Position numbers and translations under genes: made by a program. Below the pieces are notes generated by a model. That model made no database searches, was not told the DNA's origin, and saw only the letters and a list, made by a program, of their open reading frames with translations. Below, piece after piece: positions 18,946 to 23,431 of a stretch of 54,110 nt of DNA. Each line of letters begins with the position of its first letter. The stretch's first letter is position 1. Source of the stretch: Microbacteriaceae bacterium (lineage in GTDB: Bacteria > Actinomycetota > Actinomycetes > Actinomycetales > Microbacteriaceae); the NCBI GenBank assembly GCA_021741825.1, contig JAIOXB010000001.1, forward strand, positions 1-54,110. Direction: 5' to 3'.

Positions 18946-19809
18946 TTAGGCAAGCGACTTCGTGTGCCAGACGGTCTTGATCTCGACGAACGCGGCAATT
19001 CGATTGAACGCCGATTCCGTCGGCCCGAATGTTCCCGGACGCACGACGCGCATGAGCGTCTCTGCTGCCGCCCGTTCGCATTCGACCGCGATTTCACGAC
19101 CAGCTCCGGTCAAATCAATTGCGTTGACATCGGCGTGCGACGCCAACCACGGCGCGACCTCGTCGACCGACCCGGTGAGGATGTTCACGACCCCGCCAGG
19201 GACATCACTTGTTGCGAGCACTTCGGCGAACGTCATCGCCGCACACGGCGCGAGTTCGCTCGCGAGCACAACGACCGCGTTTCCGGTTGTCAACGCCGGA
19301 GCAATCGACGACACGAGACCGAGTAGCGACGAGCCGGCGACGGACGGCGCGACGAGGGCAACCACACCGGTGGATTCGGGAACGGACAGGTTGAAGAACG
19401 GTCCGGCGACGGGATTTGCACCACCGTGAACCTGCGCGAACTTGTCGGTCCAGCCCGCGTGCCAGACGAGACAATCGATCGCCGCGGACACTTCGGCGCG
19501 CGCGTCGGCGGGCTTTGCGCCGGTGGACTCGACAATTTCGGCGACAAACTGATCGAGCCGTCCCTCGAGCATCTCGGCGACGCGATAAAGAACCTGACCG
19601 CGGTTGTAGGCGCTAGCTCCGGCCCAACCGGACCACGCTGCTCGAGCGGCTACGACAGCATCGCGAGCGTCCTTGCGGCTCGCCTTCGCGACGTTGGCAA
19701 TGAACGAGCCCGTCGGACTCGACACTTCCGTCGTGCGACCCGATTCACTGCGCGGGAACTTTCCGCCGATGAAAAGTTTGTAGGTCTTGGGAATGGCGAG
19801 ACGGCTCAT
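18946..19809 (-). CDS. Aldehyde dehydrogenase-like protein, Rossmann domain only (non-catalytic partner)
   Basis: KLFIGGKFPRSESGR and GVVNILTG present; no ELGG or catalytic Cys domain. 287 aa, ATGA-coupled to the upstream ALDH. Confidence 0.85.
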   Translation of the reverse strand: MSRLAIPKTYKLFIGGKFPRSESGRTTEVSSPTGSFIANVAKASRKDARDAVVAARAAWSGWAGASAYNRGQVLYRVAEMLEGRLDQFVAEIVESTGAKPADARAEVSAAIDCLVWHAGWTDKFAQVHGGANPVAGPFFNLSVPESTGVVALVAPSVAGSSLLGLVSSIAPALTTGNAVVVLASELAPCAAMTFAEVLATSDVPGGVVNILTGSVDEVAPWLASHADVNAIDLTGAGREIAVECERAAAETLMRVVRPGTFGPTESAFNRIAAFVEIKTVWHTKSLA

Positions 19810-21254
19810 CGTGCACCTCCGTTAGCGAGGTACGCCGCGAGACCGTGTCGTCCACCTTCGCGTCCGTATCCCGATTCCTTGTAACCGCCGAAGGGGCTCG
19901 TCGGGTCAAACTGATTGAACGTGTTGGCCCAGACGACGCCCGCTCGAAGCGAATCGGCGACGCGAAGCATTCGACTCGCGTTCTGCGTCCAAATCCCAGC
20001 GCTCAGTCCGTAGGGCGTGTTGTTCGCCTTCACAATCGCTTCGTCGGGAGTTCGGAAACTGAGGACCGACAACACCGGTCCGAAGATCTCGTCGCGCGCG
20101 ACCGTGTTGCTCGTGGTTACATTCGTGAAAATCGTCGGACGGAACCAGAAACCCTTCGACGGCAATTCGCAATCGAGCGTCCAGCGGTTTGCGCCTTCCG
20201 CTTCACCCGTCGCCGTGATCGCGGTGATGCGCGCGAGTTGTTCCTTCGAGTTGACGGCTCCGATGTCGGTGTTCTTGTCGAGCGGGTCACCGAGTCGCAG
20301 GGTCGAGAGGCGACGGGTCAGTTTCTCGACGACCTCGTCCTGGATGTTCTCTTGAACGAGAAGCCTCGACCCCGCGCAACAGACGTGCCCCTGGTTGAAG
20401 AAGATTCCGGTGATGATGCCCTCGACCGCCTCGTCGATTGCTGCATCGTCGAACACGATGTTCGCACCCTTGCCGCCGAGTTCGAGCGTTACGCGGGTCT
20501 CGGAACCAGCCAACGTCCTGGCGATCTGACGACCGACCCCGGTCGAACCAGTAAAGGCGATCTTGTTAACGCCCGCGTGCTCGACGAGTGCTTGACCCGC
20601 AACACCGCCGAGCCCCGGAACGATGTTGACGACTCCCGCGGGAAGTCCGGCTTGTTCGCAGATGTCGGCGAACATGAGCGCGGTCAAGGGCGTGGTCTCG
20701 GCGGGCTTGAGCACGACCGTGTTTCCCGCGGCCAGCGCCGGCGCGACCTTCCAGGCGAGCATGAGCAGCGGAAAGTTCCAGGGGATGATCTGTCCGGCGA
20801 CGCCCAACGCCGACGGGTTAGGGCCGAGTCCCGCATAATCGAGCTTGTCCGCCCATCCCGCGTAATGGAAGAACCACGCGGCGACGAGCGGGATATCGAT
20901 ATCGCGGGTTTCGCGAATCGGCTTGCCGTTGTCGAGGGTCTCGGCGACAGCGAACTCGCGAGCACGCTCTTGAATGAGGCGCGCGATGCGGAACAGGTAC
21001 TTGCCGCGCTCGGCGCCGCTCATCCGCGACCACACAGTGTCGTAGCTCTTTCGCGCCGCCGCGACAGCCCGATCAATGTCCGACGCGTCGGCCAACGAAA
21101 TCTCGGCGATGGACTTCTCAGTCGCTGGTGAAATCGTCGTCATCGACCCGCCACGACCATCGGTCCACTCGCCACCGATATACAGGGCATAGGACGGACG
21201 AAGGTTGAGGATCGCGGTCGATTCGGGCGCCGGCGCATAATCACGGAAAGACAT
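19806..21254 (-). CDS. Aldehyde dehydrogenase, catalytic
   Basis: IIPWNFP, FTGSTGVG, LELGGK, NQGHVCCAGSR, EIFGPV and PFGGYKESG motifs. Confidence 0.95.
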   Translation of the reverse strand: MSFRDYAPAPESTAILNLRPSYALYIGGEWTDGRGGSMTTISPATEKSIAEISLADASDIDRAVAAARKSYDTVWSRMSGAERGKYLFRIARLIQERAREFAVAETLDNGKPIRETRDIDIPLVAAWFFHYAGWADKLDYAGLGPNPSALGVAGQIIPWNFPLLMLAWKVAPALAAGNTVVLKPAETTPLTALMFADICEQAGLPAGVVNIVPGLGGVAGQALVEHAGVNKIAFTGSTGVGRQIARTLAGSETRVTLELGGKGANIVFDDAAIDEAVEGIITGIFFNQGHVCCAGSRLLVQENIQDEVVEKLTRRLSTLRLGDPLDKNTDIGAVNSKEQLARITAITATGEAEGANRWTLDCELPSKGFWFRPTIFTNVTTSNTVARDEIFGPVLSVLSFRTPDEAIVKANNTPYGLSAGIWTQNASRMLRVADSLRAGVVWANTFNQFDPTSPFGGYKESGYGREGGRHGLAAYLANGGAR

Positions 21255-21261
21255 GGGACTC

Positions 21262-22449
21262 CTAATCCACGGTCACGTAGTCGGGGCCGCTGTAGTGGCC
21301 GGTGGTCATCTTCTGGCGTTGCAGAAGAACATCGTTGAGCAGGCTGGACGCCCCGAATCGGAAAAGGTGCGGGTCGATCCACTCTTCGCCAGCAACTTCG
21401 GCGACGGCCACGAGGTAGCGAATGGCGTCTTTGGATTGACGGATGCCGCCGGCTGGCTTCACACCAATGCGTTCACCGGTCAGGTTGAACCAATCACGGA
21501 CGACCTCGAGCATCAACACGGTCGTCGGAAGCGTCGCAGCGGGTTGAACCTTGCCGGTCGACGTTTTGATGAAATCGGCACCCGCGAGAATCGCGAGCCA
21601 TGACGCGCGCTTGATGTTGTCGTACGTTCGCAGTTCGCCCGTTTCGAAAATGACCTTGAGATGCGCGCGCGTTCCGTCGGCGCGGCCACACGCGCGGTGA
21701 ACCGCGACAATTTCGTTGAACACGGTGTCGAGGTCTCCGGAGAGAAAGGCTCCGCGATCGATTACCATGTCGATTTCGGTTGCACCCTGAGCGACGGCAT
21801 AGCGCGTGTCGGCCAGTTTGATCTCGAGAGTCGAGCGACCGCTGGGGAACGCGGTGGCAACCGACGCGACACCGATTCCAGTCACACCGTCACCCTTGTG
21901 GGACCCCAAGGCGGCAACGGCGTGCTGCACCATATCGGGATACACGCACACCGCGGCGACGCGCGGCGCCGTCGGGTCGGCGGGATCGGGCAGAATCGCT
22001 TTCCGCACAAGTGACCGAACCTTGCCCGGAGTATCCGCGCCCTCGAGCGTCGTGAGGTCGATGAGTCGAATAATGGTGTCGAGCGCAGCGCGCTTGGAAT
22101 CATTCTTGATAGACCTCGTTGCGAGGCGGGCGGCGCGCTCCTCCAGCCCAATCGCATCAACGGCGGCAAGCCCGCACAAGAACGCGCGAAGTGACGCCGA
22201 GTCGGTCACGCCGTGTGCACGCGAGCGGTCGGTGGCCGTGATGCCGCTTATCGGGCGAATCTCGGCATCATCGGCACTGTCAACAATCGAAATCGCAACG
22301 ATTCCCGATTCTCGGGCGAGAGCCAACAAGCGGCCCGCCTTCCAGCGAGTGATCCCGAGGATGTCCCCGATTTCGTCTTGCGTCTTGCCGTCGTCGTAAT
22401 ACAGTCGAGCTGCGCGAAGCGCGAGCTCGGTGTCCGAAATTTCTATCAC
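21262..22449 (-). CDS. deoC: Deoxyribose-phosphate aldolase fused to an N-terminal SorC/DeoR-type HTH
   Basis: aa 1-57 read AARLYYDDGKTQDEIGDILGITRWKAGRLLALARESGIV. The DeoC core has IDLTTL, EIDMVI, ADFIKTSTG and GVKPAGGIR. One continuous frame. Confidence 0.9.
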   Translation of the reverse strand: MIEISDTELALRAARLYYDDGKTQDEIGDILGITRWKAGRLLALARESGIVAISIVDSADDAEIRPISGITATDRSRAHGVTDSASLRAFLCGLAAVDAIGLEERAARLATRSIKNDSKRAALDTIIRLIDLTTLEGADTPGKVRSLVRKAILPDPADPTAPRVAAVCVYPDMVQHAVAALGSHKGDGVTGIGVASVATAFPSGRSTLEIKLADTRYAVAQGATEIDMVIDRGAFLSGDLDTVFNEIVAVHRACGRADGTRAHLKVIFETGELRTYDNIKRASWLAILAGADFIKTSTGKVQPAATLPTTVLMLEVVRDWFNLTGERIGVKPAGGIRQSKDAIRYLVAVAEVAGEEWIDPHLFRFGASSLLNDVLLQRQKMTTGHYSGPDYVTVD

Positions 22450-22455
22450 TCGTTC

Positions 22456-22495
22456 AGCCTATGCGCATATGCGCAGAATGCCAACATTTGCGCAA
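22456..22495 (-). promoter_or_regulatory. Leaderless promoter and candidate operator for HTH-deoC
   Basis: -10 TAGGCT (22456-22461) is 6 nt from GTG. Perfect palindrome TGCGCATATGCGCA (22462-22475) abuts it. Second palindrome TTGCGCAA at 22488-22495. Confidence 0.7.
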
Positions 22496-22501
22496 CGGCG
22501 T

Positions 22502-23431
22502 CTACAGGTGAATCGTGCCGTCCGCAATGAGCGCTCTGATGTCGGCGAAATCCTTGTGGAGCGCGGCGATGAGATCGTCGACCGACCCGAACGCCTCGAT
22601 GTCGCGAATCCAGTGGGTGAAACCCACCTCCGCGATCGAGCCGTAGGCGTCGAACTCGGCGTCCAGGGCGTGCGCTTCGACTTGGTCGCGGGTGACGTCG
22701 GTGAATGTCGGGTTCTTTCCGACGGAAATACCGGCAAGAAAGTCCTGTCCGTGAACACGCAGGATCCCCGCGTAGACGCCGGGCCTCGGGATCATGCCCT
22801 CGTTGTTCTCCTCGAGGTTCACCGTGGGATACCCCAGAACTCGCCCGCGCTGGTGTCCGTGAACAACAAGCCCGCGAACGCGATGAGGCCTCCCCAGCAG
22901 TTCCGTGGCGGTTTCCACGTCACCCGAACGTAGCGCTTCTCGAATTGTCGAGGACGAGACTTTGGTTTCCCCGTCCACGCAGACGTGGTCGAGCGTGACG
23001 ACCTCGAAGCCTGCCGTCGCGCCGCGAGCAACCAACGTCTCGATTTTTCCGGCACCCTTTGCCCCGAAGCGGAAATCAGAGCCGACGAGAACAAGAGAAG
23101 CGGACAGCCCGGTGACCACAATGTCATCGATGAACGCGTCGGGCGACATCGCCGCGAACTCGGTCGTGAACGGAAGGACGACGACACGGTCAGCACCAGC
23201 ATTCAGCAGTGCCTCGACCTTTTGGGGGACCGACAAGATCGGCTGCGGTGCGCGAGCGGGGTCGAACAATTCCAGTGGATGACGATCAAAAGTGACGACG
23301 ACCACACGCCGGCCGTTCGCCCGAGCACGGAGCTGCGAGACCACTTCGTGGTGCCCAATGTGAACACCGTCGAATTTGCCGATCGTGATGACCGAGTCGA
23401 CGCCGTCACTCGGCAGTGGCCACTCGGTCAT
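22502..23431 (-). CDS. ribF: Bifunctional riboflavin kinase/FAD synthetase
   Basis: GKFDGVHIGH, VSSSTIR, RGRVLGYPTVN and EAH motifs. Start re-called to ATG 23431 (ATGA overlap). Confidence 0.96.
   Translation of the reverse strand: MTEWPLPSDGVDSVITIGKFDGVHIGHHEVVSQLRARANGRRVVVVTFDRHPLELFDPARAPQPILSVPQKVEALLNAGADRVVVLPFTTEFAAMSPDAFIDDIVVTGLSASLVLVGSDFRFGAKGAGKIETLVARGATAGFEVVTLDHVCVDGETKVSSSTIREALRSGDVETATELLGRPHRVRGLVVHGHQRGRVLGYPTVNLEENNEGMIPRPGVYAGILRVHGQDFLAGISVGKNPTFTDVTRDQVEAHALDAEFDAYGSIAEVGFTHWIRDIEAFGSVDDLIAALHKDFADIRALIADGTIHL

What the first reader, a model, noticed from the sequence alone, without database searches (positions are those of the whole stretch)
21262..22495. HTH-DeoC fusion with a palindrome at its own promoter: candidate self-regulating 'trigger enzyme'
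Seen: one uninterrupted 395-aa frame joins a ~57-aa SorC/DeoR/LsrR-type HTH, through a short linker, to a DeoC that keeps its catalytic motifs (ADFIKTSTG, GVKPAGG). The sugar-phosphate effector domain that SorC-family regulators normally carry is absent. A perfect palindrome TGCGCATATGCGCA directly abuts the -10 (TAGGCT, 6 nt from GTG), and a second TTGCGCAA lies upstream. No clear SD precedes the internal in-frame GTG at 22209. Known: SorC-type DeoR repressors sense deoxyribose-5-phosphate, which is also the DeoC substrate. Inference: an in-frame deletion fused regulator to enzyme, and the aldolase may now supply oligomerisation and ligand sensing for autorepression of deoC-ALDH-ALDH.
Basis: partly seen in the sequence, partly recalled or inferred. 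Interest (0 to 1): 0.82.

Follow-up and report, generated by a model that had tools for sequence, protein, structure and literature searches.

The report
Repressor head grafted onto deoxyribose aldolase
In a clade of small-genome freshwater Microbacteriaceae, the DNA-binding head of a sugar repressor is fused in frame to the deoxyribose-phosphate aldolase gene and its binding site now sits inside the promoter core, so the enzyme likely represses its own gene, with unfused sister species available to show how such enzyme-regulators likely arise.

Summary
The fusion is real and clade-wide. 26 of 31 genus genomes carry it; 3 keep the ancestral two-gene layout (SorC repressor, then deoC); 2 lack the locus. 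Fused genomes form one clade in an rpoB+lepA tree, and the SorC effector domain was found in none of them. The HTH is not decaying: dN/dS 0.049 against 0.034 for the aldolase barrel, with an invariant recognition helix. The palindrome is a variant of the family operator TGCTCANNTGAGCA. Unfused loci carry it upstream of the -35; all 27 fused loci lost that copy and 25 carry a new one between -35 and -10, conserved far beyond neutral sites. A homodimer through both head and aldolase is predicted. Autorepression is likely (about 0.8). No report of this architecture was found in three paper searches or among this scan's earlier notes; the neighbouring split ALDH16 was noted before on other DNA.

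The parts
21262..22449 (-). Fused gene: SorC/DeoR-type DNA-binding domain + linker + DeoC, 395 aa, leaderless GTG start
   Evidence: full-length in 26 of 31 genus genomes and 57 protein clusters
22282..22437 (-). DNA-binding domain (res 5-56), recognition helix TRWKxGRLL at 22324-22350; R35 and R40 align to DNA-contacting R34 and R39 of B. subtilis DeoR
   Evidence: dN/dS 0.049; R35, W36, K37, G39, R40 invariant in 57 fused and 27 unfused
22282..22302 (-). Beta-strand (res 50-56) that dimerises SorC/DeoR heads; retained, with fixed post-fusion change at E54
   Evidence: PMC11229326 sections 4, 20; predicted interface res 49-57
22246..22281 (-). Linker (res 57-68): variable sequence, nearly fixed length; ancestral deoC ATG and its SD are gone
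   Evidence: dN/dS 0.30; pLDDT under 50 at 53-63; spacing 41 or 42 aa in 56 of 57
21265..22245 (-). DeoC (res 69-395) with D227, K265, K295, K331 invariant
22462..22475 (.). Operator site C, in the -35/-10 spacer; new in the fused clade
   Evidence: top matrix hit of the 948-kb assembly; score over 11 in 25 of 27 fused loci, absent from 3 of 3 unfused genus loci; 1.42 vs 6.55 changes per site
22481..22494 (.). Operator site B (half-site TGCGCA plus AATG, right half overlapping the -35); ancestral in the genus, kept in fused and unfused
   Evidence: 0.6 changes per site over 10 positions
22479..22484 (-). Inferred -35 (TTGGCA), 17 nt from the -10
   Evidence: sequence; TTG invariant
22456..22461 (-). 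Inferred -10 (TAGGCT) of a leaderless promoter, 6 nt before GTG
22501..22514 (.). Decayed position of ancestral operator site A, overlapping the ribF stop
   Evidence: matrix score 20.6-24.8 in 3 unfused genus loci, at most -7.4 in all 27 fused loci
19806..21254 (-). ALDH16-type aldehyde dehydrogenase, catalytic part (second gene of the operon)
   Evidence: best PDB match 6MVR res 11-475, E 9e-167
18946..19809 (-). Free-standing C-terminal domain of the same ALDH16-type enzyme (third gene)
   Evidence: best PDB match 6MVR/6MVU res 499-762, E 1e-59

Best explanation
The gene is a clade-wide in-frame fusion of a SorC/DeoR DNA-binding head to an intact deoxyribose-phosphate aldolase, and the full-length protein likely binds the conserved two-site operator in its own promoter and represses the deoC-ALDH16 operon, with the aldolase predicted to replace the deleted effector domain as the oligomerising scaffold and the loop most likely setting the enzyme's level rather than sensing substrate. 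Shown: fusion, ancestral two-gene state, loss of the effector domain, loss of the internal start, purifying selection on the head, operator identity and its shift from A+B (upstream) to B+C (promoter core). Inferred: DNA binding and repression (about 0.8), aldolase as scaffold (predicted), ligand-blind feedback (simplest reading; only slightly ahead of the sensing rival).
For: Fused in 26 of 31 genus genomes, unfused in 3; one clade, UFBoot 100. PF04198 in 0 of 28 other genus genomes, including 8 of the 10 that are at least 90% complete, so no full-length SorC was found that could own the operator. dN/dS 0.049 head, 0.034 barrel, 0.30 linker. Site C gained and site A lost together; site C 1.42 changes per site vs 6.55 at four-fold sites, 0 of 100,000 resamples as low. 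Same motif upstream of 23 of 32 unfused heads in further loci. Fixed head changes at predicted dimer positions: E15R (57/57 vs 27/27), E54 to S/T/A. Homodimer score 0.64, best control 0.00; mark reached by 20 of 30 solved pairs and 1 of 23 single chains; runs agree in at least 90% of contacts, pLDDT at least 87; interface uses head res 11-19, 45, 49-57 and aldolase loops (may reflect likeness to solved DeoR and DERA dimers). In DeoR the heads dimerise by themselves but need the second domain for avidity (PMC11229326 sections 20, 21, 24). For ligand-blindness: floppy linker, no confident head-to-aldolase contact among listed interchain pairs.
Against: No binding, expression or enzyme data exist; the one RNA run gave only a 138-nt piece at the deoC/ALDH boundary. 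Site C is weak in G016 (5.0) and G005 (-3.5). lepA alone places the unfused genomes inside the fused ones (92/92 protein, 76 nucleotide) and the DeoC tree is unresolved. A ligand-blind loop gives a smaller benefit than a sensing one, and all four named precedents (RbkR, BirA, NadR, PutA) are described as trigger enzymes. An unrelated transcription factor binding the site cannot be excluded.
Confidence: 0.45

Rival explanations
1. True trigger enzyme: the protein represses its operon and the aldolase active site is the new sensor; dR5P bound as a Schiff base at K295 (or a product) shifts the aldolase dimer and loosens the heads from the operator.
For: All evidence for autorepression above. The predicted aldolase dimer is built from active-site-face loops (res 135-140, 200-207, 229-237, 269-272, 300). 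Linker length is nearly fixed. Fixed new residues flank the linker (G69, S76, V81, D83) and the interface (R274, 57/57). A stronger site placed in the promoter core is easier to justify if it can be lifted. Precedent: RbkR uses its kinase domain as sensor (PMC5397151 passages).
Against: No coupling shown. Linker pLDDT under 50 and dN/dS 0.30. For other DERAs dimer contacts affected stability, not activity (PMC4725968 passages). Ancestral repressor lacks the DeoR lysine, so ligand continuity is not established.
Confidence: 0.36
2. The head is kept for a non-regulatory job (extra dimerisation, stability, docking of the ALDH16 partner or general DNA tethering), and the operator is bound by another factor or kept as promoter sequence.
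For: The beta-strand interface is retained and retooled. Site B overlaps the -35. No conserved second target was found in fused genomes.
Against: The DNA-reading residues, not only the dimer strand, are invariant. Site C matches this head's own family motif, lies in a spacer that varies at other leaderless promoters of the genus (dcd, thyX), and appeared together with the fusion.
Confidence: 0.12
3. Relic or artefact: a harmless leftover head, an internal start giving plain DeoC, or a misassembly.
For: Streamlined genomes often lose regulators (general knowledge); no proteomic evidence.
Against: 26 genomes and 57 clusters share the junction; independent contigs bridge it; dN/dS 0.049; no start-type codon between res 57 and 100 in 13 of 27 fused genes and none with an SD in any; the GTG at 22209 is GTG in only 8 of 24.
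Confidence: 0.03

Closest known systems
SorC/DeoR subfamily repressors (B. subtilis DeoR, PDB 8R7Y/7BHY; E. coli LsrR; Klebsiella SorC)
   Same: Homologous HTH plus dimerising beta-strand; two-part operator overlapping the promoter; the ancestral gene is a full SorC repressor (E 6e-40 to 8R7Y) upstream of deoC, as in B. subtilis (PMC11229326 introduction).
   Different: The family's hallmark effector-binding domain is absent and replaced by the regulated enzyme itself; different operator sequence.
RbkR riboflavin kinase/regulator of Archaea (PMC5397151), and BirA, NadR, PutA as listed there
   Same: DNA-binding domain fused to an intact pathway enzyme that is the only copy in the genome; operators before pathway genes.
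   Different: Different head (SorC HTH, not MarR-like wHTH) and enzyme (class I aldolase of sugar catabolism; the paper places the known cases in cofactor and amino-acid metabolism). Those are ancient; this one is confined to part of one genus with unfused sisters extant. Function here is untested.
DeoC/DERA class I aldolases (E. coli 1JCL; long actinobacterial type)
   Same: Passes TIGR00126; fold match TM 0.89 by target; catalytic lysines conserved.
   Different: 68-residue N-terminal addition carrying a DNA-binding domain.

Membership tests
SorC family repressor | N-terminal homeodomain-like HTH of 50-60 aa | tested here: met
   three helices at 6-19, 24-31, 35-47
SorC family repressor | Beta-linker dimerising the heads (SorC/DeoR subfamily) | tested here: met
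   V51, I53, I55 invariant; predicted interface
SorC family repressor | C-terminal sugar-binding effector domain (PF04198), the family hallmark | tested here: not met
   absent from the protein and not found in 28 of 31 genus genomes; so not filed as a SorC member
SorC family repressor | Tetramer on a two-part operator, released by a phosphosugar | not testable with these tools
   two conserved sites 19 bp apart; only a dimer could be modelled
DeoC / DERA aldolase | Curated family score and TIM-barrel fold | tested here: met
   TIGR00126 167.4 vs 117.3
DeoC / DERA aldolase | Schiff-base lysine and pKa-lowering lysine (E. coli K167, K201) | tested here: met
   K295 and K331 align and are invariant in 24 of 24; roles from PMC4725968 passage
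DeoC / DERA aldolase | dR5P cleavage activity | not testable with these tools
   no assay
Bifunctional enzyme-regulator / trigger enzyme (RbkR, BirA, NadR, PutA type) | DNA-binding domain fused to an intact enzyme, both under selection | tested here: met
Bifunctional enzyme-regulator / trigger enzyme (RbkR, BirA, NadR, PutA type) | Fused form is the genome's only copy of the enzyme | tested here: met
   single match in all 8 fused genomes at least 90% complete; second matches in G004, G014, G042 are contig-end pieces
Bifunctional enzyme-regulator / trigger enzyme (RbkR, BirA, NadR, PutA type) | Cognate operator before pathway genes | tested here: met
   comparative only:
Bifunctional enzyme-regulator / trigger enzyme (RbkR, BirA, NadR, PutA type) | Demonstrated DNA binding and repression | not testable with these tools
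   inferred
Bifunctional enzyme-regulator / trigger enzyme (RbkR, BirA, NadR, PutA type) | DNA binding controlled by substrate or state of the catalytic domain | not testable with these tools
   indirect hints both ways

The most novel reading that the evidence does not exclude
A trigger enzyme caught just after birth: one deletion swapped a repressor's sensor domain for the enzyme it controlled, the aldolase active site became the new sensor, and the operator and the head's dimer interface were rebuilt to suit, with pre-fusion sister species still alive for comparison.
Probability: 0.36. Interest if true: 0.87.

Novelty: new variant of a known kind. Interest (0 to 1): 0.74.

Why it matters
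Known enzyme-regulator fusions are old, so how they start is inferred, not observed. Here before and after exist in one genus: the two-gene ancestor, the fused gene, a relocated operator and fixed changes in the head. That makes 'how does an enzyme become a transcription factor, and does sensing come with the fusion or later' testable with small soluble proteins in vitro or in E. coli. It is also a case of genome streamlining that shortens a regulator by about 750 bp but apparently keeps the regulation, and it would extend such fusions to sugar catabolism.

Tried and rejected
Independent fusions elsewhere: none found. Outside the genus no match covered head and aldolase in one frame among 300 family genomes, 400 order genomes, 150 further loci (its 4 fused loci are of the same type) or the best 150 of 8,179 hits among 50%-identity representatives (25 long ones scanned). 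P0155 (839 aa) looked like a second fusion but reads as a frameshifted read-through of the ordinary operon. Regulon shrinkage after fusion: rejected for dcd, whose site is in 2 of 2 unfused genus genomes, 0 of 24 fused and 0 of 10 family outgroups, so it was gained in the unfused sister clade; the kynureninase site (4 of 4 unfused-clade, 0 of 19 others) has no outgroup test; thyX only in G041 (1 of 26). No operator near the pyrimidine phosphorylase gene in 5 genomes (best 7.5). Genome-wide motif counts in fused genomes do not exceed the reversed control. Linker derived from the repressor's C-terminus: not demonstrable, the junction is too diverged and that tail is in another frame. Codon-model omega from IQ-TREE could not be read out; counting method used instead. 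ESM Atlas gave no usable hit. The native locus of the short variant P0057 was not retrieved. RNA evidence: one small contig only, no start site or strand. One search picked a wrong frame for outgroup G203 and was redone without it. A search for the DeoR Schiff-base lysine in print found nothing.

Full report
Setting. The window is contig C45 of a 948-kb, 68% complete, 60% GC assembly. Named relatives are labelled Microbacteriaceae or Actinomycetota MAGs, genus genomes are 0.7-1.6 Mb and public runs holding the stretch are mostly lake or freshwater metagenomes. The gene order on the minus strand is ribF, the fused gene, and two ALDH genes, which match the N-terminal (res 11-475) and C-terminal (res 499-762) parts of PDB 6MVR; the name ALDH16 for that entry comes from earlier scan notes.

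Observation. The 395-aa frame, both domains, the palindrome at 22462-22475, TAGGCT and the 6-nt gap to GTG are as described. The palindrome alone is weak evidence: 104 perfect palindromes of 14 bp or more occur in the assembly. The promoter reading is sound: TAGRCT-6 nt-start is enriched genome-wide (42 vs 1-7; 16 at spacing 7). Contigs of six other runs cross the junction without gaps.

Spread and origin. 56 other protein clusters at 76-96% identity cover the whole query. Of 31 genus genomes, 26 show the fusion, 3 (G011, G013, G041) have a 315-aa SorC repressor whose stop overlaps the deoC start, and 2 incomplete ones have no match. 24 of 25 best other-genus family loci also show repressor then deoC, so the two-gene state is ancestral. 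The fusion removes about 750 bp: the effector domain, the deoC SD and its ATG (ancestral Met aligns to residue 68, never Met in 24 fused genes). PF04198 is found in the 3 unfused genomes only. An rpoB+lepA tree (24 genomes, codon positions 1+2; G203 dropped for a wrong frame; genomes lacking rpoB not included) gives the fused genomes as one clade and the unfused ones, with G002, as sister, both UFBoot 100. Against this, lepA alone nests the unfused clade among fused ones and the DeoC tree is open at that node. Shared fixed residues and the identical position of site C favour one origin. No fusion was found outside the genus.

Selection. On 10 disjoint pairs (20 of 24 full genes; Nei-Gojobori counts, Jukes-Cantor corrected) dN/dS is 0.049 for res 10-56, 0.034 for the barrel, 0.079 for the DeoC N-terminal helices and 0.30 for the linker. 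T23-Q24 and R35-W36-K37-x-G39-R40-L41-L42 are invariant in 57 fused and 27 unfused proteins. R35 and R40 align with DeoR R34 and R39, named as base-contacting in PMC11229326 (section 20). Some head positions switched and fixed with the fusion: E15 to R (57/57 vs 27/27), E54 to S/T/A, H57 to D/E/S; 15, 54 and 57 lie in the predicted head-head interface. No conserved internal start exists. Catalytic residues are invariant in 24 of 24.

Operator. A 14-bp palindrome TGCTCANNTGAGCA (site A) precedes 24 of 24 other-genus repressors (at least 10 of 12 positions) and 3 of 3 unfused genus repressors, upstream of the -35 and 19-21 bp before a weaker site B. A matrix trained on the 24 other-genus sites also scores over 12 before 23 of 32 further unfused heads; the 9 misses are 7 loci of other actinomycete families and 2 cut by contig ends. 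In all 27 fused loci (26 genomes) site A has decayed (best -7.4), site B is kept, and a site C lies 19 bp downstream of B in the -35/-10 spacer: over 11 in 25, 5.0 in G016, -3.5 in G005; the unfused genus loci score -3.3 or less there. The window's site C is the best matrix hit in the assembly. On the 24-gene tree its 12 informative positions change 1.42 times per site, site B 0.6, flanks 4.5-7.6 and four-fold sites 6.55. So the operator moved by one unit into the promoter core in step with the fusion, in genomes where the fused head is the only SorC head found.

Structure. AlphaFold2 gives a three-helix head, a low-confidence stretch at 53-63 and a DERA barrel. The homodimer scores 0.64 against a best control of 0.00 (mark reached by 20 of 30 solved pairs, 1 of 23 single chains; contacts agree at least 90%, pLDDT at least 87), with a head-head beta-strand interface and an aldolase interface made of active-site-face loops. 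Both resemble solved dimers, so the pass may be from memory. PMC11229326 (sections 4, 20, 21, first part of 24 read) says DeoR heads dimerise on their own, half-operators do not bind detectably, and the effector domains supply avidity and sensing; a dimerising aldolase could supply the first of these.

Mechanism. Most likely the fusion is both the cell's deoxyribose-phosphate aldolase and the repressor of its own leaderless promoter (about 0.8). Whether the loop senses substrate is open. I put ligand-blind level-setting at 0.45 and aldolase sensing at 0.36. The ancestral effector is itself unknown: 27 of 27 ancestral repressors have Asn at the position of DeoR Lys141, a residue I recall as the covalent anchor; the paper read says only that dR5P binds covalently. 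No conserved second target was found in fused genomes; extra sites at dcd and kynureninase belong to the unfused sister clade.

Comparison and novelty. It works like RbkR, BirA, NadR and PutA (PMC5397151, passages only) but is not shown to be a trigger enzyme; it is a DeoC by all tested features; it is not a SorC member because the hallmark domain is missing. Searches for the architecture (listings only) and scan notes found no report; subscription journals and regulon databases were not searched, and the supplements of PMC11229326 were not read. PMC4725968 was seen as passages. Verdict: new variant of a known kind, well supported comparatively, untested biochemically; interest 0.74.

Noticed in passing
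window 18946-21254 (-): The two ALDH genes are the N- and C-terminal halves of a 6MVR-like (ALDH16) enzyme; a DeoC-ALDH three-part fusion exists elsewhere (P0242, 1142 aa).
   Followed up: partly
L245:2513-2526 (G041), L257 (G011): The operator sits just before the -10 of dcd (dCTP deaminase) in the unfused sister clade only; absent in 24 fused genomes and 10 outgroups, so a recent regulon gain.
   Followed up: yes
L244:2515-2528, L248, L250, L252: Operator-like palindrome about 75 nt before kynureninase, at a divergent promoter, in 4 of 4 unfused-clade genomes and 0 of 19 others.
   Followed up: partly
L249:2545-2558 (G013); L251:2510-2523 (G011): Operator-like sites before an NCS1 nucleobase permease plus deaminase, and before a probable ABC sugar-binding protein.
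   Followed up: no
genome contig C48:28055, 34033, 34709: Three copies of the palindrome GTTTCACGTGAAAC (14-24 bp), the parS consensus as recalled, marking the likely origin region.
   Followed up: no
P0057: A 389-aa fused variant with a 4-aa shorter linker and unresolved tree position; its locus was not retrieved.
   Followed up: partly
P0191, P0195, P0222, P0235: DeoC fused to phosphomutase (PGM/PMM) domains in unrelated organisms.
   Followed up: no
whole assembly: Strong leaderless-promoter signature, TAGRCT 6-7 nt before start codons.
   Followed up: partly
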